In this document: positions 2,348-13,371 of the stretch, in pieces
Numbering within the stretch: position 1 is the stretch's first letter
Layout: the number at the start of each line of letters is the position of its first letter
The notes under the pieces: generated by a model
Told to the model about the DNA's origin: nothing
The model's input: the letters and a program-made list of their open reading frames with translations, nothing else
The model's database searches: none
From: a virus
DNA: 13,371 nt
Direction: 5' to 3' (one strand)
Virus genome (UHGV): UHGV-0090146
Translations under genes and position numbers: made by a program

Positions 2348-4261
2348 ATGGCTACCACACCAACCAATAAACCAATTCCGTCAGAAGACCCTCGTGACCT
2401 GAAATTTAATGCCGGAAAGATTGACGAGGTAGTGACATCTGACGCGCATTACTACACCGACCGCTTCGGTGTGCGCCGCTGGACAATTGCTGGATTTCAG
2501 CACACCGCAGAAGAAGCAATCAGTAACTATGGATACATTACGATGGACAGCTTCGAAGATGGTGCGACACTGACGCTACCTAATCAGGTTTTGCGTTATG
2601 AGGCAACTGGAGAATATTACCGTTGGGATGGTGAGTTTCCTAAAACCGTTTCTGTAGGTTCTACCCCTGAAACTGCTGGCGGTATTGGGATTGGCGCGTG
2701 GGTTAGTGTTGGCGATGCGTCATTGAGGCATGAACTTGAAATCACAAGCGCTATTCCTTTTGTAAGGCCAGAAAATTTCGGTGGTGTAGGTGATGGAGTG
2801 ACGGATGATACAAATGCAATAAAAGCTGTTATAGCAACTGGGAAACCAATTTCTTTAGTAGGTAAAAAGTGGCTAATAACATCTACCATAGAATTTCCTG
2901 ATGGATATGCTGTTGATGCAAGGTCGTCAGAAATAGTTGCGGACACAGGCTCTGCACCTATCTTCCTTTTTAAGGGTAATAATCTTGGTATGCATTTCAC
3001 AGGCTCATTAGTGAGAGGGACTGCTGGTGCATTCATGAAGTTGGAAGGCCAGACAGATGCGCCTACAGCAAGCAATCAATATGCTAAATTATTAAAACTT
3101 AGTGGTGTCCATATCTCCTCGGCAACTATAGATGCCGCTCTTATTTTCGATAAGGCAGTACGAATAATATTCATTGATAGTTGTGTGTTCTTTTGCAGAA
3201 ACGGAATAATTAGCAATGGTAAGTCTGTAGAGATTACCATTCAAAAATCAGTTATATACGGTGCCACGAGTGATACTGATACTTCTGGTATAAAAATAAC
3301 AAGTTCAGGTGGTGCAAGCAAGTACAGTGAGGGGTGGCATATTTCAGACTGCACAATAGATAATTTCGAAAATACAATTGATCTATCCGATATATTTGTA
3401 TTCACCTTAAATGGTGGCTACACGGCATGTAATTCTAATACCGGATATGCTATTACCGTGCGCGGACCGACTACAACAACTCACTGTCGAGATCTTTATT
3501 TTAACGGCATGTTTGGCGGTAAAATTCGCTTCCTTGACCAAACTGCTGGTCCTGTAACTATGCATGCCAGGATAACAGGAGAACTCCTGTTCACTAAGGC
3601 AGGAACGTGTCTTGCTATTGGGGCAAACATGGCGGCAATTGATATCAGCAACTTAAAGATTGTATCTGCAACGCCTGGTAACACTGCCATCTCTGTAGCG
3701 AACGGGAGTGCCAATATTAATATCCGTGGGATTAGTACAGATGCAACTCTTGGGGCAGGGATTATATTTAATGGGGAGTCAGGCAGTAACTGCTCGATTT
3801 CTGATTTTTCATATTCTGGTTCTGGAGAGGCTTTATCACTTGCTAGGCCAGTTAAGCTTTCCAACGTTCCTACAGTTGGTAGCGAAACTTTGAATTGGTC
3901 AATAAAGTACGATTATGTATCTGCATCAAAAGATGTTGCAGTTGGGTCTTACATAAATCAACTGCAAATGACTATTGCAAGATATAGCAAGATTAAGATT
4001 AATATTAACCTCGCATATTCAGGTGGGGCAGCAAGCAATTCTCAAGTTATTGGAATAACAGTCCCTACTGGGGTGGTTCTGCCAAATGGTACGAACTCGA
4101 TGCAGTTCACATTACCAGCAACTGCTGGAACATTAACTATGAGCATTGATGCAACAACAACGCTAGACTTCAAGAATCTGTCATTCAGCATCGATAACAG
4201 AGCTGGTAACCAACTGCGTATTTTGGCCGGCTCTCACTTGTCTGTATCTTTAGATAATTAA
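2348..4261 (+). CDS. Tailspike / tail fiber with pectate-lyase-like right-handed beta-helix (probable polysaccharide depolymerase, receptor-binding protein)
   Basis: 637-aa ORF with AAGGAG at 2331-2336 upstream of ATG 2348. Motif FGGVGDGVTDDTNAIKAVIATG is typical of the Pectate_lyase_3 / beta-helix N-cap (established family signature). The first ~130 aa form a separate N-terminal domain. A terminator follows. Confidence 0.85.
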   Translation: MATTPTNKPIPSEDPRDLKFNAGKIDEVVTSDAHYYTDRFGVRRWTIAGFQHTAEEAISNYGYITMDSFEDGATLTLPNQVLRYEATGEYYRWDGEFPKTVSVGSTPETAGGIGIGAWVSVGDASLRHELEITSAIPFVRPENFGGVGDGVTDDTNAIKAVIATGKPISLVGKKWLITSTIEFPDGYAVDARSSEIVADTGSAPIFLFKGNNLGMHFTGSLVRGTAGAFMKLEGQTDAPTASNQYAKLLKLSGVHISSATIDAALIFDKAVRIIFIDSCVFFCRNGIISNGKSVEITIQKSVIYGATSDTDTSGIKITSSGGASKYSEGWHISDCTIDNFENTIDLSDIFVFTLNGGYTACNSNTGYAITVRGPTTTTHCRDLYFNGMFGGKIRFLDQTAGPVTMHARITGELLFTKAGTCLAIGANMAAIDISNLKIVSATPGNTAISVANGSANINIRGISTDATLGAGIIFNGESGSNCSISDFSYSGSGEALSLARPVKLSNVPTVGSETLNWSIKYDYVSASKDVAVGSYINQLQMTIARYSKIKININLAYSGGAASNSQVIGITVPTGVVLPNGTNSMQFTLPATAGTLTMSIDATTTLDFKNLSFSIDNRAGNQLRILAGSHLSVSLDN

Positions 4262-9196: not shown

Positions 9197-9271
9197 AGCA
9201 ACTAACCTTTGTTGATGTTTCTACGTCAGTTAGCTTATACTCAATCTACACCAACAATCAAGGGTCAATTT
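9197..9271. promoter_or_regulatory. Divergent intergenic control region between helicase (-) and primase (+)
   Basis: 75-bp gap between divergent starts. Plus strand has TTGATG (9212-9217), 18-nt spacer, TATACT (9236-9241). A weaker candidate exists on the minus strand. Confidence 0.3.
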
Positions 9272-10225
9272 ATGAGATACGACTGGAAGGACATTGAACC
9301 AAAAATGCTCGGAAATTGGCAAGCTGCCATCATGTCTATCGTCAATGTGGATAGCAGAGTTTTCAATGGCAAGCACCAGCCATGCCCGTCATGCCTTGGC
9401 AAAGACAGGTATCGTTTTGATGATAACTTCGAAACAAAAGGCGATGGCGGAGCAATCTGCAACCAGTGTGGTTCCGGAAGCGGAATGAACTGGCTGATGA
9501 GACTATCCGGAATGAGCTTTCCTGAAGCACTGGAGGCGCTGGGAGGATTCCTGAACATGCACCCTCGCGAAAAGCTGGAGGCAATCAGGAAGGAACTACC
9601 GAAGATAAATCACAACGATGACTTCATCACCGAGCAGGAAGTCGCCGCGATCATGGCTAAAACGACTTGTGTCGCGATGAGTGAGTGGACGCTGATAAAT
9701 GGTATTGGTTGCGACATTAACGTCGTCAGAGGTAAATCCAGAGAGCTTATTGCGGTTGAGATGATGCGCTCTGACACAATGAAGCCATGCAACGTGGCAT
9801 TCATTGGCATGGGTGGTGATTCATTCAAAACTTTTTTCCGCGCAGGATACAACAAGTACTCAGCCATCAACGGTAAACTCACGCGCGGCGCGATAAGCCC
9901 AATCGGAGAAGATAACGGAAAGTTCATTTACCTGGTATCTGATTATGCAGATGCGTGGAAATGCCATTACTTCACTGGTGCGCATGTCTGGTGCTGCTGG
10001 TCGCCGGAAAACATGTGGGAAGTGGTGCGCTCTGTTAGCGATGAGGTGAAAGCGAGGTTGCGCTGCATAGTTAATTATAAATTCGACGAGCTGTGCGCCG
10101 CAGAGAATGCAGGCCTTCCGGTGATGCTTCCTGATGATGCTGACACTATCAGGATGGCAAAGAGAATCATGAGAAAGATTTATGACGCTGGCGAGTTGAT
10201 AGAAAAAATGTCAGTCAGCAGATAA
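9272..10225 (+). CDS. DNA primase (N-terminal zinc-ribbon; Toprim-like core inferred)
   Basis: Zinc-binding signature CPSCLGKDRYRFDD...GGAICNQCGSGSGMNWL, typical of phage/plasmid primase N-termini. AAGGG RBS 7 nt before ATG 9272. The track ORF begins at 9209 but would overlap the helicase start and candidate promoter. Confidence 0.65.
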   Translation: MRYDWKDIEPKMLGNWQAAIMSIVNVDSRVFNGKHQPCPSCLGKDRYRFDDNFETKGDGGAICNQCGSGSGMNWLMRLSGMSFPEALEALGGFLNMHPREKLEAIRKELPKINHNDDFITEQEVAAIMAKTTCVAMSEWTLINGIGCDINVVRGKSRELIAVEMMRSDTMKPCNVAFIGMGGDSFKTFFRAGYNKYSAINGKLTRGAISPIGEDNGKFIYLVSDYADAWKCHYFTGAHVWCCWSPENMWEVVRSVSDEVKARLRCIVNYKFDELCAAENAGLPVMLPDDADTIRMAKRIMRKIYDAGELIEKMSVSR

Positions 10226-10228
10226 AGG

Positions 10229-10253
10229 AAACCCTCCGATTGGAGGGTTTTTG
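10229..10253. terminator. Bidirectional rho-independent terminator between convergent primase and minus-strand operon
   Basis: Hairpin CCCTCC-GATT-GGAGGG (10232-10247) flanked by AAA on one side and TTTTT on the other. Confidence 0.75.
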
Positions 10254-10670
10254 TTATTCATTGAACTCTGGCGCTTGAGTCCAGAAGGCTACATTTCGCA
10301 GCGACTTACCCGTGTGATTGCACCAGTATATTCCTGAGTCATCATACTTGGCAGTAACCTTGACTCGATCAGCATCAATAATAACAACCTCCTGCCCATC
10401 ATTAGGGTCGAAAAGACGCGCATCTTTCCAGTTAGCAATCTCATTAAGGGAAAGAAGCACATAACCGGGAAGATAAGCTTCGACATCAGCGATGTGAACT
10501 ATTGTTCGCTCCGCTCTCTCTCCTGTGTAGTCTCCATTCCACTCATAAAGAATAATCGTGTCTCCAACCTTAAAATCACGATCGTTCTTTCTTAGCTCCG
10601 CCTTCTTGTGTCCGGTAACTACAGGCCAGAAGTGTTCAGGTAAGATTTTTAGTTCGTGTTTTTTGCTCAT
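10254..10670 (-). CDS. ASCH / DUF3850-like (PUA-fold) domain protein with C-terminal extension
   Basis: N-terminal MSKKHELKILPEHFWPVVTGHKKAELRKNDRDFKVGDTIILYEW fits the DUF3850/ASCH pattern as recalled. ATG at 10668-10670 has GAGGA 8 nt upstream and lies 1 nt from the stop of the upstream 65-aa gene. The in-frame extension to 10700 is less likely. Confidence 0.6.
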   Translation of the reverse strand: MSKKHELKILPEHFWPVVTGHKKAELRKNDRDFKVGDTIILYEWNGDYTGERAERTIVHIADVEAYLPGYVLLSLNEIANWKDARLFDPNDGQEVVIIDADRVKVTAKYDDSGIYWCNHTGKSLRNVAFWTQAPEFNE

Positions 10671-10671
10671 T

Positions 10672-10869
10672 TCAAACATCCTCATAACACCAATATGCAA
10701 CGCAAATTATTTCAACCAAATCATTTGATGATAAAAATTTATTACCATCATAAATTGCGTGAATTCTTTCACCATCAACAGTTAATGCCATAACATTTCT
10801 TCCTATCTGCGGACGCCAGAGATAGCAATCAAACCATTCAACATCATACCAATCATCTTCTGGACTCAT
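10672..10869 (-). CDS. Hypothetical protein (65 aa), translationally coupled
   Basis: ATG overlaps the stop of the 491-aa gene (ATGA) and is preceded by GAGGT. Its stop lies 1 nt before the ASCH gene start. No recognisable motif. Confidence 0.55.
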   Translation of the reverse strand: MSPEDDWYDVEWFDCYLWRPQIGRNVMALTVDGERIHAIYDGNKFLSSNDLVEIICVAYWCYEDV

Positions 10870-12341
10870 TTCAACCTCGGATTTATGTGCACAGTGTTTC
10901 CGATAAATACGCAGTAACCATCCTCTTCAAGTGATGGCAATACACTTGACCTGAGGCGGTCGTAAATTTTAGGTATTCCTTTGAATGGCCTAACATTTTT
11001 AAGTGAATCATAAAGCCACTTTACCGTTACGTTTGTTTTTCCTTTCTGAGCGGCAGAGCGTAGCTTTTCGGCAACAACATCAAATTCAGAACGCTCGCCA
11101 GCATATCCATTTGATTCCACGGCGTCGGTGAATGTTTTTGTCAGTGCGTCATAAACGCTGATAGCGCGACTAATTTCATTTTCACAGATAATTTTTGACC
11201 TCTTTCCTCCATCACACCAGTTTTCAGCAGCGTGAAATATTGCTGCCAGGCGGATTATTTGCTTATCAGCTTTACCCATTGCACCACGAAGAAGAACATG
11301 GTCCCACTTACCGCCTGGAAGGAAGTTTTTCTCCCACTGGTTTCGCAACATGCCGATCATTCTTGCTGAATCATTGTGAAGAGTCAGTCTTGTTTTTTCT
11401 GCTGACACAACATTATGTATAAATCTTGCATATTCCGACCTCAAGCTGTCTGGCATTGGCTTGCTTACAGGGCAGTCATTAACCATGTCCCAGTGTTCGC
11501 GATAGCCAAGCATTGATTGCTCGCGCAACATCAGGAAACGTTCAGAAAGACCGTTCCCCCTGTCGCCAGCGGCAAGAATGGCATCAATACTTTCATCCTG
11601 CGCAATCACACTTATGTTTCCAAGCACGTAACCAGATGAAACGCCACGACCAACACGAGCAGAGCCAATGAATCCTCCATCCCAGCCCTTCAGGATGACT
11701 TCGGCGTTTGCCTTTCCACCTTCTTTTCCGTAAGAGAGGCCAAGGCATGTGTTAAGGACGCTTGCCTCGTCACTTATCAGGTTAAAAAACCCACCTTCAT
11801 GGATGGCCTGATGCTGAACAGCCTCCGGCGTTGCGTCCGTCAGTGGATATGTAATCGTATAAAGCTCTTCCAGCTTCTCCTTTTCCCGAGCAATATCATC
11901 GCCGATTAGTGCCTTTGCATTCTGATTACTGGCCTCTTTATATGCCTTCATCAACTCTTCAATGCGAAGATTTATTTTTATGATCTGCTTTTCCATCTTT
12001 TTGGAAAGATTGTCATATTCAATCTTCACCGGATTCATGTGCATTGAGTTGATGGCGGTTTTCCCTGCTGATGGAGGCTGAGAAGTAACCACGTAAAGAG
12101 AAACTGGAAGTTCTGAATGGTAATACTCAACGCTAAAGTTTCTCGTCATTGCGCTGGCAACGCACCCAAGCAAATGCATGAACGATGTATTTATTGGGAA
12201 CTGAACGGCACGAGCTGCAGCGATTGCATAACGAGACAGCAAATCAGTCCGGTGCTCACTGGTAAGTTCTGTTTCTGAGTACGTTACATCACGCTCCTTA
12301 CCTTCCTTGATGTCAAGCCACATATTTGAGCTTGGTGTCAT
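10866..12341 (-). CDS. Hypothetical protein (491 aa) with degenerate P-loop NTPase-like motifs; possible DUF3987-like replication-associated protein
   Basis: Long ORF with SQPPSAGKTA (GKT, P-loop-like) and, about 90 aa later, FNLISDEAS (hydrophobic stretch plus DE, Walker-B-like). No canonical SD before ATG 12341 and an alternative Met at 12323, so the start is uncertain. Family assignment is from memory only. Confidence 0.8.
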   Translation of the reverse strand: MTPSSNMWLDIKEGKERDVTYSETELTSEHRTDLLSRYAIAAARAVQFPINTSFMHLLGCVASAMTRNFSVEYYHSELPVSLYVVTSQPPSAGKTAINSMHMNPVKIEYDNLSKKMEKQIIKINLRIEELMKAYKEASNQNAKALIGDDIAREKEKLEELYTITYPLTDATPEAVQHQAIHEGGFFNLISDEASVLNTCLGLSYGKEGGKANAEVILKGWDGGFIGSARVGRGVSSGYVLGNISVIAQDESIDAILAAGDRGNGLSERFLMLREQSMLGYREHWDMVNDCPVSKPMPDSLRSEYARFIHNVVSAEKTRLTLHNDSARMIGMLRNQWEKNFLPGGKWDHVLLRGAMGKADKQIIRLAAIFHAAENWCDGGKRSKIICENEISRAISVYDALTKTFTDAVESNGYAGERSEFDVVAEKLRSAAQKGKTNVTVKWLYDSLKNVRPFKGIPKIYDRLRSSVLPSLEEDGYCVFIGNTVHINPRLK

Positions 12342-12414
12342 GATGGAAGGCGACGCGAGCAGGAGATACTTTTAATTCCCTTGCTTCGTTGAAGATGTCT
12401 TGAGCTGTAATCAT
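12313..12414 (-). CDS. Possible small ORF (33 aa, MITAQDIFNEARELKVSPARVAFHHDTKLKYVA)
   Basis: ATG at 12412-12414 preceded by AAGGG with 7-nt spacer. It overlaps the stop of the upstream small ORF (TGATG) and the 5' end of the 491-aa gene. Too short to validate by sequence alone. Confidence 0.25.
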   Translation of the reverse strand: MITAQDIFNEARELKVSPARVAFHHDTKLKYVA

Positions 12415-12614
12415 CACTGAACCCTTAAAATTGTTAATTCGCATGTGTCCCTGTTGTATTTTGTCCAGTACACAAAGTCGCTTTTCTTCGAAATTTTGGA
12501 CAGGCACATCCTGAAAATAAGCACCTCAACACCTATCGCCTTAAGATTTATAATCTTTTTCTCGTCAACCCTCATTCTTGAGACTATATCGCGAACTCGT
12601 TTCATGTTTGACAT
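12414..12614 (-). CDS. Possible small ORF (66 aa from MSNMKRVRDIV...)
   Basis: Sits directly downstream of a strong minus-strand promoter candidate. Weak RBS. Basic protein with no recognisable domain. Confidence 0.3.
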   Translation of the reverse strand: MSNMKRVRDIVSRMRVDEKKIINLKAIGVEVLIFRMCLSKISKKSDFVYWTKYNRDTCELTILRVQ

Positions 12615-12650
12615 TTTTACCGCCAACCGTGGTTAATCATGGTGTGAAAG

Positions 12651-12679
12651 ATTATATAAAGATATAAACGAAATGGCAA
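12651..12679 (-). promoter_or_regulatory. Sigma70-like promoter for the minus-strand operon
   Basis: On the minus strand: TTGCCA (plus 12674-12679), exact 17-nt spacer, perfect TATAAT (plus 12651-12656). About 30-40 nt upstream of the first minus-strand ORF. Confidence 0.55.
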
Positions 12680-12740
12680 CCATATCATTCTTGGCGTGGT
12701 TTAAGCGACTAAATGGTTATCTGTGGGTAACGTGGGTAAG

Positions 12741-12767
12741 GCGTGGGGCAACCAACCTTCCCCACGA
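12741..12767. repeat. 27-bp repeat copy 1 (GCGTGGGGCAACCAACCTTCCCCACGA), internally palindromic
   Basis: Identical to the copy at 12929-12955. Contains inverted arms CGTGGGG / CCCCACG separated by 11 nt. Confidence 0.85.
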
Positions 12768-12928
12768 AGTTTTCCTATAAGTATATGTAATATAATAAAA
12801 TTATTATTATTTGGGTTAATGGGTACAAATGGATTATTTGAATATATTTATAAGGGGATGGGTATGAAATCTTCCCCTTTTTACCCACGAAAAATAAAAA
12901 CATTCAAATCAATTATTTACGATGAAAA

Positions 12929-12955
12929 GCGTGGGGCAACCAACCTTCCCCACGA
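12929..12955. repeat. 27-bp repeat copy 2 (identical to 12741-12767)
   Basis: Exact 27/27 match to copy 1, 188 bp away, in the same orientation. Confidence 0.85.
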
Positions 12956-13008
12956 CCTGCCCCACGGGCAAAAATTTACCCCACGAGCACGTTTTTAACG
13001 CATTCCTG

Positions 13009-13037
13009 TTGACGTGGAATCATAGCTGATGTAGATT
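13009..13037 (+). promoter_or_regulatory. Sigma70-like promoter for the rightward small-gene operon
   Basis: TTGACG (13009-13014), 17-nt spacer, TAGATT (13032-13037). GAGGGTGAAGAG RBS and ATG at 13068 lie about 30 nt downstream. Confidence 0.5.
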
Positions 13038-13067
13038 GAACTCATCGAAACAAACGAGGGTGAAGAG

Positions 13068-13214
13068 ATGAAAATCAAAGACCGTGAAGAATTTGAAGAT
13101 GCACAGGCTATGGCTCGCATTGCAGTTGAACGCACAAACAACAGCATTCCAGCAGATGCATTCTGGAACGCTGCAATGCAGGCATTAATCTCAGCGTATG
13201 GGTTAAGCAAATGA
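13068..13214 (+). CDS. Hypothetical small protein (48 aa, MKIKDREEFEDAQAMARIAVERTNN...)
   Basis: Not in the ORF track because it is short. RBS GAGGGTG upstream. Its stop overlaps the next ATG (ATGA). Confidence 0.45.
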   Translation: MKIKDREEFEDAQAMARIAVERTNNSIPADAFWNAAMQALISAYGLSK

Positions 13215-13306
13215 CAGGCGCATCATTTGAACTTATCGCCAGTCTGGTTATCGTGGCATTCATCATTATCGCAGTGGCAGTTTCTAAATCAGGATATAAG
13301 GAGTAA
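13211..13306 (+). CDS. Hypothetical small membrane peptide (31 aa, single predicted TM helix)
   Basis: MTGASFELIASLVIVAFIIIAVAVSKSGYKE has a hydrophobic core flanked by charged residues. ATGA overlap with the upstream gene. The downstream AAGGAG serves the next gene. Confidence 0.35.
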   Translation: MTGASFELIASLVIVAFIIIAVAVSKSGYKE

Positions 13307-13309
13307 TAA

Positions 13310-13371
13310 ATGGCAAAGACTATCTATCGTCGCGAAAAACTGGAACAAGAACTCGGTCACGTTGGCGCGCA
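13310..13371 (+). CDS. Hypothetical protein, 5' end only (MAKTIYRREKLEQELGHVGA...)
   Basis: ATG at 13310 preceded by AAGGAG at optimal spacing. ORF runs off the window end. Confidence 0.5.
   Translation, partial: MAKTIYRREKLEQELGHVGA

What the first reader, a model, noticed from the sequence alone, without database searches (positions are those of the whole stretch)
12651..13037. Divergent near-consensus promoters bracketing the repeat region
The minus strand carries TTGCCA-N17-TATAAT (plus coordinates 12651-12679). The plus strand carries TTGACG-N17-TAGATT (13009-13037). They fire outward into the unknown-function operon and the small-gene operon, with the repeat cluster in between. This suggests a regulatory hub where one bound factor could control both operons, or where transcription activates an origin.
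Basis: seen in the sequence. Interest (0 to 1): 0.5.

Follow-up and report, generated by a model that had tools for sequence, protein, structure and literature searches.

The report
Phage replication origin between divergent promoters
The two promoters are real-looking and sit on either side of what is most likely the phage's replication origin: short repeats and an easily melted AT-rich stretch that always match the helicase gene next door. This is a familiar kind of element, not yet described for this phage group.

Summary
Motif statistics alone are weak, but comparison with relatives supports both promoters.

- **Rightward promoter:** TTGACG-17-TAGATT is kept, with invariant spacing, in almost every relative.
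- **Leftward promoter:** it differs in sequence between relatives, but a sigma-70-like site always lies 16-36 nt upstream of the first leftward gene.

The repeats between the promoters are 12 half-sites (TGGGGnA / TnCCCCA) in three clusters. They flank the least stable DNA of the window and a single IHF consensus site.

Across relatives, the same rightward promoter adjoins at least six unrelated repeat families. For the five families whose neighbour could be read, each has a different replication protein beside it. The swapped cassette is window 10319-13002 and ends at the upstream edge of the rightward -35.

Here the neighbouring protein is a DUF3987, MCM-like helicase with a C-terminal winged helix.

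Best reading (confidence 0.68): an iteron-type origin read by this initiator-helicase, as in SaPI Rep/ori, with divergent transcription plausibly helping melting. The idea that one factor controls both operons is not supported by the geometry. This is a new member of a known kind, of moderate interest.

The parts
12651..12679 (-). Leftward promoter of the replication operon: -35 TTGCCA (12679-12674), 17-nt spacer, -10 TATAAT (12656-12651); predicted start near 12644.
   Evidence: 11/12, best in window. Same or near-same site in L004 and L023. Non-homologous left flanks carry their own site at the same position: TTGATG-17-TATGAT, TTGTGA-17-TATGAT, TTTACG-17-TATCAT. Other cassette types have TTGACA-17-TAAGAT, TTGACT-17-TATTCT and TTGACG-17-TATATT, 16-36 nt before the first gene.
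13009..13037 (+). Rightward early promoter: -35 TTGACG, 17-nt spacer, -10 TAGATT; predicted start near 13044. It drives the small-gene operon that begins at 13068.
   Evidence: 23 of 24 complete related loci, spacing invariant. (identical promoter beside six different repeat families). (four-copy promoter family in the Bas79 genome). (TTGACT-17-TAGATT in Pectobacterium phage Ymer).
12722..12766 (.). Left iteron cluster of four half-sites: TGTGGGTAA (12722), CGTGGGTAA (12731) and CGTGGGGCA (12742) pointing right, TTCCCCACG (12758) pointing left. The last two form the 26-nt palindrome annotated as a repeat in phage E1.
   Evidence: The arms are conserved and the spacers vary in all relatives. 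The mosaic boundary with the left flank is at about 12722.
12768..12853 (.). AT-rich tract, the candidate DNA-unwinding element. Positions 12770-12819 are the least stable 50 bp of the whole window. A 43-nt segment present in all relatives is missing at 12824/12825.
   Evidence: z = 4.3. (the equivalent 100 bp is the least stable of the 46.9-kb Bas79 genome, z = 5.7). (conserved block CTAAGTATATGTAATATAAT; deletion).
12854..12889 (.). Central iteron cluster: GGGGA (12854) and TGGGTA (12859) pointing right, TTCCCC (12872) and TTACCCACG (12881) pointing left.
12907..12919 (+). IHF consensus site AATCAATTATTTA (pattern WATCAANNNNTTR).
   Evidence: the only match in the 13.4-kb window. One of two matches in the Bas79 genome lies in the equivalent place. 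Found in 15 of 17 promoter-anchored loci and in all six iteron types.
12930..12985 (.). Right iteron cluster: CGTGGGGCA (12930) pointing right; TTCCCCACG (12946), TGCCCCACG (12958) and TACCCCACG (12977) pointing left.
   Evidence: 6 of the window's 8 CCCCAC copies lie in 12743-12984. (all 7 CCCCACG copies of the Bas79 genome lie in the equivalent 466 bp).
12414..12614 (-). First gene of the leftward operon: a 66-aa winged-helix protein. It is a candidate accessory DNA binder or autoregulator.
12313..12414 (-). Orphan reading frame (MITAQDIFNEARELKVSPARVAFHH...). In every relative this is the in-frame N-terminus of the helicase. Here a 5-nt deletion puts it out of frame.
10866..12341 (-). DUF3987 (SF6, MCM-like AAA+) helicase with a C-terminal winged helix (residues about 416-486). 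Proposed iteron reader and self-loading initiator-helicase.
10319..13002 (.). Extent of the exchangeable replication cassette: ASCH gene, 65-aa gene, helicase, small gene, leftward promoter, iterons, AT-rich tract and IHF site.
   Evidence: homology to phages with other iteron types stops at 10195-10318 on the left and resumes at 13003-13009 on the right.
9209..10225 (+). DnaG/P4-alpha-type primase with a zinc ribbon. It is conserved outside the cassette and is the likely partner of the helicase.
13068..13214 (+). First small early gene (48 aa) downstream of the rightward promoter.
   Evidence: Annotated as a hypothetical protein in relatives.

Best explanation
The 440-bp intergenic region is the phage's origin of replication, framed by two host sigma-70 promoters that fire outward.

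**Proposed mechanism**
1. Twelve short half-sites (TGGGGnA / TnCCCCA) lie in three clusters: mostly rightward on the left, mixed in the centre, and mostly leftward on the right.
2. These half-sites are read by the phage's own MCM-like DUF3987 helicase, encoded immediately to the left.
3. Helicase assemblies on the clusters, helped by an IHF-induced bend at 12907-12919, open the AT-rich tract at 12770-12853 and load themselves. The separate primase and the host polymerase then take over.
4. The leftward promoter makes the replication proteins. The rightward promoter makes the small early proteins.
5. Their divergent transcription should underwind the DNA between them and so favour melting.

**What is shown:** the motifs, their conservation, the co-variation of repeats with the neighbouring replication protein, the duplex instability, the IHF site, and the fold of the helicase.

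**What is inferred:** that the helicase is the binder, that it self-loads, that melting occurs at the AT-rich tract, and that transcription contributes.
For: **1. Clustering.** Six of the window's 8 CCCCAC copies lie in 12743-12984. In the complete Bas79 genome all 7 CCCCACG copies lie in the equivalent 466 bp.

**2. Conserved architecture.** The half-site arms are conserved and the spacers vary in 29 related loci. Both flanks of that core are mosaic.

**3. Co-variation with the neighbouring protein.** The identical rightward promoter adjoins six different repeat families. In the five families where the neighbour could be read, it is a different replication protein:
- TGGGGCA with the DUF3987 helicase of 491/518 aa;
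- GGATAA with an unrelated 495-aa protein;
- CGGGAAGC with a 777-aa PrimPol-PriCT2-DUF3987 fusion;
- AGTTACCGG with an unrelated 542-aa protein;
- GTGCCCA with a DUF3987 helicase only 34% identical.

**4. The CCCC core follows the helicase lineage.** It is kept with helicases 87%, 63% and 50% identical. The 50% case is Pectobacterium phage Ymer, which has a different gene order.

**5. Linkage across a variable segment.** The helicase gene and the iterons stay matched although the small gene and promoter between them exist in three unrelated versions.

**6. Cassette boundaries.** They fall at 10318 and 13003.

**7. Physical properties.**
- The AT-rich tract is the least stable duplex of the window (z = 4.3) and of the Bas79 genome (z = 5.7).
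- The cumulative GC-skew minimum of Bas79 lies inside the region.

**8. IHF site.** There is a single consensus match in the window, and it recurs in all six cassette types.

**9. The helicase.**
- It has an MCM-like AAA+ core and a C-terminal winged helix.
- The winged helix is 20% identical to that of a helicase with different iterons, against 40% for the AAA core. It is 46-89% identical among helicases that keep the CCCC core.

**10. Known precedent.** The layout matches the experimentally characterised SaPI Rep/ori system: 6-12 iterons on both sides of an AT-rich centre in opposite orientation, read by the winged helix of a self-loading helicase (PMC9371898).
Against: - No binding, melting, replication or transcript-mapping data exist for this phage group. 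I found no paper linking DUF3987 to iterons, and the phage E1 genome paper was not readable.
- The co-variation rests on a modest number of lineages that are not independent.
- The neighbouring protein for iteron type 3 was not recovered.
- A second DNA-binding candidate, the 66-aa winged-helix protein, sits between the helicase and the iterons and resembles the winged-helix domains of iteron-plasmid Rep proteins.
- The window's own helicase lacks the conserved N-terminal 27 residues because of a 5-nt deletion. The window also lacks 43 nt of the AT-rich centre. This particular copy may therefore be impaired or mis-assembled.
- GC skew in phages largely follows transcription direction, so the skew minimum is weak evidence.
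- T1-like phages with 35-40% identical helicases have no comparable intergenic region next to the gene.
Confidence: 0.68

Rival explanations
1. Same origin, different reader. The small winged-helix protein encoded first in the leftward operon (or its AP2-like substitute in E1 and IME207) binds the half-sites and recruits the helicase, like an ORC or Rep protein. The helicase itself would not read the DNA.
For: - The 66-aa protein folds with high confidence as a winged helix.
- A small protein with a weakly shared sequence pattern precedes the large replication protein in every cassette type examined.
Against: - The same CCCC-core half-sites occur with three unrelated small proteins: the window type, a 79-aa type and an AP2-like 90-aa type. 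They change only when the helicase changes.
- The left-flank sequence up to 12721 co-varies with the small gene, which suggests its target, if any, is near the leftward promoter.
Confidence: 0.15
2. The repeats are operators for one transcription factor that co-ordinately controls both divergent promoters, for example an early-to-middle switch, with no role in replication.
For: - Inverted half-sites are typical of dimeric regulators.
- The repeats lie between two promoters.
- Rep proteins of iteron plasmids are known to autoregulate (general knowledge).
- A winged-helix protein is encoded next door.
Against: - No half-site overlaps a -35, a -10 or a predicted start site.
- The distance from the repeats to the conserved plus promoter varies from about 6 nt to over 200 nt between cassette types.
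- The cassette boundary sits at the upstream edge of the plus -35, so repeats and plus promoter are inherited separately.
- Twelve sites spread over 265 bp around the least stable DNA, plus an IHF site, fit an origin better than an operator.
- The repeats co-vary with a helicase, not with the early genes.
Confidence: 0.1
3. The repeats are a DNA-packaging recognition site (pac or cos) bound by the small terminase subunit. The record of phage Akira is opened inside this region because a physical genome end lies there.
For: - The Akira GenBank record begins and ends inside the AT-rich centre, exactly at the edge of the 43-nt segment the window lacks.
- Two IMG/VR contigs also start near there.
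- IHF sites occur in lambda cos (general knowledge).
Against: - The region lies more than 2 kb and about ten genes upstream of the terminase genes.
- Repeat type does not follow the terminase region. Bas79 shares terminase-region DNA with swi2 and 64795_sal3, which have different repeats. It does not share it with Akira, which has the same repeats.
- Most records and contigs open elsewhere.
- The 43-nt segment has inverted-repeat ends, which can by themselves cause deletions and assembly breaks.
Confidence: 0.04
4. A host DnaA-dependent origin, or chance promoter-like matches in AT-rich non-coding DNA with no special function.
For: - TTACCCACG loosely resembles the DnaA box TTATCCACA.
- The number of weak promoter matches in the window is at chance level.
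- An 11/12 match arises in 24% of shuffled windows.
Against: - No TTWTNCACA box is present in the window or in any of 17 related loci.
- The invariant core of the repeats is CCCCA, not CCACA.
- The promoters are conserved or re-created at fixed positions across many relatives, and the plus promoter has paralogues elsewhere in the genome.
Confidence: 0.03

Closest known systems
SaPI (Staphylococcus aureus pathogenicity island) ori with the Rep initiator-helicase (PMC9371898)
   Same: - Six to twelve short iterons lie on both sides of an AT-rich centre, with opposite orientation on the two sides.
- They are read by a winged helix at the C-terminus of an AAA+ hexameric helicase that also acts as initiator and loads itself.
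- A primase is encoded nearby.
- There are several specificity groups of matched Rep and ori.
   Different: - The origin lies upstream of the helicase operon, between divergent promoters, not immediately downstream of rep.
- There are three clusters rather than two, plus an IHF consensus site.
- The host is a virulent enterobacterial siphophage, not a Gram-positive island.
- An extra small winged-helix gene is present.
Lambdoid phage O protein with ori-lambda, including transcriptional activation from pR (general knowledge)
   Same: - Iterons with internal dyad symmetry lie next to an AT-rich region.
- Matched initiator/iteron specificities are exchanged as modules between related phages.
- Nearby transcription promotes origin firing.
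   Different: - Ori-lambda lies inside the O gene, and O is not a helicase. It recruits host DnaB through the P protein.
- Here the origin is intergenic and the putative reader is itself the helicase.
Satellite phage P4 alpha protein with ori and crr (general knowledge; the Pfam PF08273 description cites P4 alpha)
   Same: - A phage-encoded primase and helicase are combined with origin recognition of short repeated sites in direct and inverted orientation.
- The same zinc-ribbon primase family is present.
   Different: - P4 alpha is a single polypeptide with a different helicase class, and its two site clusters lie 4.5 kb apart.
- Here the primase and helicase are separate genes and the clusters lie within 265 bp.
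Iteron plasmids (F RepE, R6K pi, pSC101/pPS10 RepA) with IHF-assisted origins (PMC4980987; general knowledge)
   Same: - Iterons, an AT-rich unwinding element and an IHF site occur together.
- Winged-helix recognition is used. The small 66-aa protein resembles one Rep winged-helix domain.
- The initiator promoter lies beside the origin.
   Different: - Plasmid Reps are two-domain, non-helicase initiators that depend on DnaA and DnaB-DnaC.
- No DnaA box is present here, and the phage brings its own helicase.
Archaeal and eukaryotic MCM helicases
   Same: The closest solved folds for the AAA+ core. A C-terminal winged helix is present.
   Different: - Identity is only about 10-13%, and the MCM N-terminal OB/zinc domain is absent.
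- MCM is loaded by ORC/Cdc6 and does not itself read origin sequence.

Membership tests
Sigma-70 (housekeeping) promoter | -35 and -10 hexamers close to TTGACA and TATAAT, separated by 16-18 nt | tested here: met
   Minus strand 11/12 and plus strand 9/12, both with 17-nt spacers.
Sigma-70 (housekeeping) promoter | Placed upstream of a gene at a workable distance, and maintained in relatives | tested here: met
   About 30-nt and 24-nt leaders. The plus promoter is in 23 of 24 complete loci and beside six cassette types. The minus promoter is re-created in each flank version.
Sigma-70 (housekeeping) promoter | A transcription start mapped about 7 nt downstream of the -10 | not testable with these tools
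   No transcript data are available.
Iteron-type replication origin | A cluster of short repeated protein-binding sites, largely confined to one locus of the genome | tested here: met
   Twelve half-sites in 265 bp. All 7 genome copies of CCCCACG lie in the locus in Bas79.
Iteron-type replication origin | An adjacent AT-rich, easily melted element | tested here: met
   It is the least stable duplex of the window (z = 4.3) and of a complete relative genome (z = 5.7).
Iteron-type replication origin | Repeat sequence co-varies with a linked initiator gene | tested here: met
   Six repeat families were found; five have identified neighbours, all different. The CCCC core is kept down to 50% helicase identity.
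Iteron-type replication origin | The initiator binds the repeats, and the fragment supports replication | not testable with these tools
   Needs gel-shift, footprinting and plasmid or marker-frequency assays.
DUF3987 / SF6 MCM-like helicases | Match to Pfam PF13148 above its threshold, and an MCM-like AAA+ fold with a C-terminal winged helix | tested here: met
   [not shown]
SaPI Rep-type self-loading initiator-helicases | Sequence homology to SaPI Rep | tested here: not met
   [not shown]
SaPI Rep-type self-loading initiator-helicases | The origin lies immediately downstream of the rep gene | tested here: not met
   Here the repeats lie upstream of the operon, beyond a small gene and a promoter.
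DnaA-dependent origin | DnaA boxes TTWTNCACA | tested here: not met
   None in the window region or in 17 related loci.
Packaging site (pac/cos) | Lies next to the terminase genes and co-varies with them | tested here: not met
   It is more than 2 kb from the terminase genes. Repeat type and terminase region assort independently.
Known RNA families | Match to an Rfam covariance model | tested here: not met
   Only two chance-level hits, E = 0.39 and 0.97.

The most novel reading that the evidence does not exclude
These phages may use a two-part, ORC/MCM-like initiation system. In this reading the small winged-helix protein encoded first in the leftward operon marks or remodels the origin, and also autoregulates its promoter. 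The MCM-like DUF3987 helicase then reads the half-sites and loads as opposed rings around the AT-rich centre. The whole unit would form a hot-swappable specificity cassette, with at least six specificities circulating among Skatevirus-like phages of E. coli, Salmonella and Klebsiella. That would be a bacterial-virus counterpart of archaeal and eukaryotic origin licensing, in a tractable E. coli system.
Probability: 0.2. Interest if true: 0.65.

Novelty: new member of a known kind. Interest (0 to 1): 0.4.

Why it matters
DUF3987 helicases are widespread in phages and mobile elements, yet I found no paper in the held library linking them to iterons.

This locus gives a concrete, testable origin with defined half-sites, a melting region and an IHF site. 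It also offers natural controls: at least six matched origin/initiator cassettes sit beside one conserved promoter. Some of these phages are already in culture collections (BASEL Bas78 and Bas79).

It could serve as a simple bacterial model for how MCM-like helicases recognise and open origins. It would also allow origins to be annotated in roughly 200 related Salmonella, E. coli and Klebsiella phage genomes, where the region is currently marked only as 'repeat' or left blank.

For the narrower first-stage finding, the two promoters are ordinary host-type early promoters.

Tried and rejected
- **Rfam scan of 12400-13371:** only chance-level hits.
- **DnaA boxes and GATC clustering:** none conserved.
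- **Hairpin reading of the repeats:**
  - The 26-nt palindrome folds at -7.5 kcal/mol (z = -3.2). However, its arms are simply two copies of the half-site, with variable spacers and no compensatory changes.
  - The other two candidate hairpins are no better than shuffles.
- **PDB sequence searches with the helicase and with its profile:** nothing.
- **PHROGs on the small proteins:** families of unknown function only.
- **Phage E1 genome paper (Pickard 2008):** not held in the library. The Skate, IME207 and BASEL papers say nothing about this region.
- **Neighbour of iteron type 3:** my first query used the wrong end of locus L038 and hit the portal gene. The corrected query found no GenBank phage, so this neighbour remains unknown.
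- **T1-like and Webervirus homologues (35-40% identity):** the helicase sits inside a co-directional operon with no large intergenic region. They neither help nor contradict.
- **N-terminal peptide versus iteron flank (CG or AA):** no clean correlation.
- **Internal promoter-like sites in the AT-rich tract:** examples are TTAACC-16-TATTAT on the minus strand and TTGTCA-16-TATAAT in some relatives. These are expected by composition, are not consistently conserved in the -35, and are left open.

Full report
**What the window is**

The window comes from a small virulent siphophage of the cluster around Salmonella phages Vi II-E1, IME207, Akira and Skate and Escherichia phages C1, swi2 and Bas78/79. 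This cluster is called 'Skatevirus and relatives' in PMC11990801.
- Megablast finds 157-198 related phage records, but none covers 80% of the window.
- The genes to the left of the finding, on the minus strand, are a replication module, not an 'unknown-function operon'. They are:
  - a 66-aa protein (12414-12614);
  - a DUF3987 helicase (10866-12341);
  - a 65-aa protein and an ASCH protein.
- Further left lie a zinc-ribbon primase on the plus strand (9209-10225), an SNF2-type helicase, a PD-(D/E)XK exonuclease, an AAA_24 protein and SSB.
- To the right are small early genes starting at 13068.

**The observation**

Both motifs are exactly as described.
- **Minus strand:** TTGCCA-17-TATAAT, 12679 to 12651, 11/12, the best match in the window.
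- **Plus strand:** TTGACG-17-TAGATT, 13009-13037, 9/12.

Statistics within the sequence are weak.
- The count of matches at 9/12 or better is at chance level: 21 against 24.8 expected.
- An 11/12 match turns up in 24% of dinucleotide shuffles of the window and in 2.5% of shuffles of the intergenic region.

The support comes from comparison with relatives.
- **Conservation.** In 29 loci fetched through the helicase, every complete locus but one has the plus promoter at the same place, with -35 TTGACG, a 17-nt spacer and -10 TAGATT or TATAGT. Phage E1 has TAGTTT.
- **Paralogues.** In the complete genome of Bas79 the same design occurs four times, each in front of a gene block. One copy also shares the downstream TGATGTAGATT.AA.TCATCGAAAC.
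- **Leftward promoter.** It is not homologous across relatives, because the left flank exists in several unrelated versions. Each version has its own sigma-70-like site 16-36 nt upstream of the first gene:
  - TTGCTA-17-TATAAT, TTGATG-17-TATGAT, TTGTGA-17-TATGAT and TTTACG-17-TATCAT;
  - by eye, TTGCAA-17-TAGTAT in E1 and IME207 (sequence);
  - TTGACA-17-TAAGAT, TTGACT-17-TATTCT and TTGACG-17-TATATT in other cassette types.

**Anatomy of the region between the promoters**

The repeats are twelve half-sites with core TGGGGnA / TnCCCCA.
- **Left cluster (12722-12766):** three pointing right, one pointing left.
- **Central cluster (12854-12889):** two pointing right, two pointing left.
- **Right cluster (12930-12985):** one pointing right, three pointing left.

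The 26-nt palindrome that E1's annotators marked as a repeat is one right-left pair of half-sites. Across relatives the arms are conserved and the spacers vary, which fits protein sites rather than a hairpin.

Other features of the region:
- **AT-rich tract.** The tract between the left and central clusters holds the least stable 50 bp and 100 bp of the window (z = 4.3). The equivalent 100 bp is the least stable of the whole 46.9-kb Bas79 genome (z = 5.7).
- **IHF site.** The only IHF consensus match of the window (WATCAANNNNTTR, 12907-12919) lies between the central and right clusters.
- **Genome-wide confinement.** In Bas79 all seven CCCCACG copies lie in this 466-bp region, and the cumulative GC-skew minimum falls inside it.

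**The key comparative result**

Scanning IMG/VR for the core of the plus promoter returned 16 loci. The same promoter, nearly base for base, adjoins at least six unrelated repeat families. De novo k-mer counts confirm the families.

| Repeat family | Neighbouring replication protein |
|---|---|
| TGGGGCA / CCCCACG | DUF3987 helicase, 491/518 aa (window type) |
| GGATAA | 495-aa protein, no similarity to the window helicase |
| GGGCGAA plus GTGGGCAA | not recovered |
| CGGGAAGC | 777-aa PrimPol-PriCT2-DUF3987 fusion |
| AGTTACCGG | 542-aa protein, no similarity |
| GTGCCCA / GGGCAT | DUF3987 helicase, 34% identical |

All six types keep the overall design: repeats in both orientations, a very AT-rich stretch, usually an IHF consensus site (15 of 17 loci) and a leftward promoter.

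Further points from the comparison:
- **Cassette boundaries.** Blastn places the exchanged cassette at window 10319-13002. Its right edge is at 13003-13009, the upstream edge of the plus -35. The leftward promoter, repeats, AT tract and IHF site therefore travel with the helicase. The rightward promoter travels with the early genes.
- **The core follows the helicase.** The CCCC core persists with helicases 87%, 63% and 50% identical. The last is Pectobacterium phage Ymer, where the helicase lies in the rightward operon.
- **Linkage across a variable segment.** Helicase and repeats remain matched although the small gene and promoter between them come in three unrelated versions: a winged-helix 66-aa protein, a 79-aa protein and an AP2-like 90-aa protein.

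**The candidate reader**

- Against the helicase that accompanies GTGCCCA repeats, the winged helix is the most diverged segment: 20% identity against 40% in the AAA core. Among helicases that keep the CCCC core it stays 46-89% identical.

**How it most likely works**

The layout matches the experimentally studied SaPI origin. There, 6-12 short iterons flank an AT-rich centre in opposite orientation and are read by the winged helix of a helicase that is also the initiator and loads itself without ATP (PMC9371898).

I therefore read this region as an origin of that type.
1. Helicase assemblies form on the clusters.
2. IHF bends the DNA.
3. The AT tract melts.
4. Rings load.
5. The separate primase and the host polymerase follow.

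Divergent transcription from the two promoters should underwind the intervening DNA (the twin-domain model, general knowledge).

**Rivals**

- **A purely transcriptional hub.** The repeats do not overlap the core promoters. Their distance to the conserved plus promoter varies greatly between cassettes, and they are inherited separately from that promoter.
- **A packaging site.**
  - For: the Akira record opens inside the AT tract.
  - Against: the region is over 2 kb from the terminase genes, and repeat type assorts independently of the terminase region.
- **A DnaA-dependent origin.** This is excluded at the level of consensus boxes.

**Novelty and caveats**

- I found no paper linking DUF3987 with iterons. 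Papers on these phages do not discuss the region.
- The kind of element is well known from lambda, P4, SaPIs and iteron plasmids, so this is a new member of a known kind.
- All functional steps are inferred from sequence and comparison.
- The window's own copy carries two oddities: a 5-nt deletion that detaches the helicase N-terminus and a 43-nt deletion in the AT tract.

Noticed in passing
window 12313-12414 and 12341-12345 (minus strand): A 5-nt deletion (CATGG) is absent from all 13 relatives compared. It puts the conserved 27-aa, helix-turn-helix-like N-terminus of the helicase (MITAQDIFNEARELKVSPARVAFHH) out of frame, leaving a 33-aa orphan reading frame and a 491-aa helicase body. The nearest database homologues are 517-518 aa. 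It could be a real split gene, a pseudogene or an assembly error.
   Followed up: partly
window 12824/12825: A 43-nt AT-rich segment (AATATTATTATTCATATTATAGATAGTAATTAACATAATATTA) is present in every relative but missing here. Its ends form an 8-nt inverted repeat. The GenBank record of phage Akira is opened exactly at the right edge of this segment. This may be deletion and assembly breakage at a quasi-palindrome, or a hint of a physical DNA end or nick.
   Followed up: partly
[not shown]
   Followed up: partly
window 12907-12919: This is the single IHF consensus match in the whole window. The extended form AAAATCAAT...TTAC recurs in origin cassettes whose iterons are otherwise unrelated.
   Followed up: yes
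window 10227-10252: A bidirectional terminator-like hairpin (AAACCCTCC-GATT-GGAGGGTTT) lies between the primase and the ASCH gene. It coincides with the left edge of the exchangeable cassette and with a repeat_region annotated in phage E1.
   Followed up: no
L050 (Bas79) 498-611: A 114-bp non-coding block is 87-95% identical in phages that differ in origin cassette and in terminase region. It contains TTGGCA-18-TACAAT, then about 55 nt, then a GC-rich hairpin with a T-run. This looks like a small transcription unit or leader just upstream of the terminase genes.
   Followed up: no
L050 (Bas79) 44681 (+), 24570 (-), 22780 (-), 19615 (-): A four-member promoter family TTGAC[AG]-17-TAGATT/TATAGT heads separate gene blocks. 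Two members also share the sequence just downstream of the -10.
   Followed up: partly
L003 (IME207) 3121-3393 and the equivalent gene in E1: In the E1/IME207 subgroup the small gene upstream of the helicase is replaced by a 90-aa protein with a sub-threshold AP2-domain match (E = 7e-4, 20.3 bits against a cut-off of 33.3). In E1 this gene is annotated as a pseudogene.
   Followed up: no
window 12625-12645: An imperfect palindrome CCGTGGTTAATCATGG (12 of 16 positions self-complementary, judged by eye) lies between the predicted leftward start site and the start codon. It could be an operator for the small winged-helix protein.
   Followed up: no
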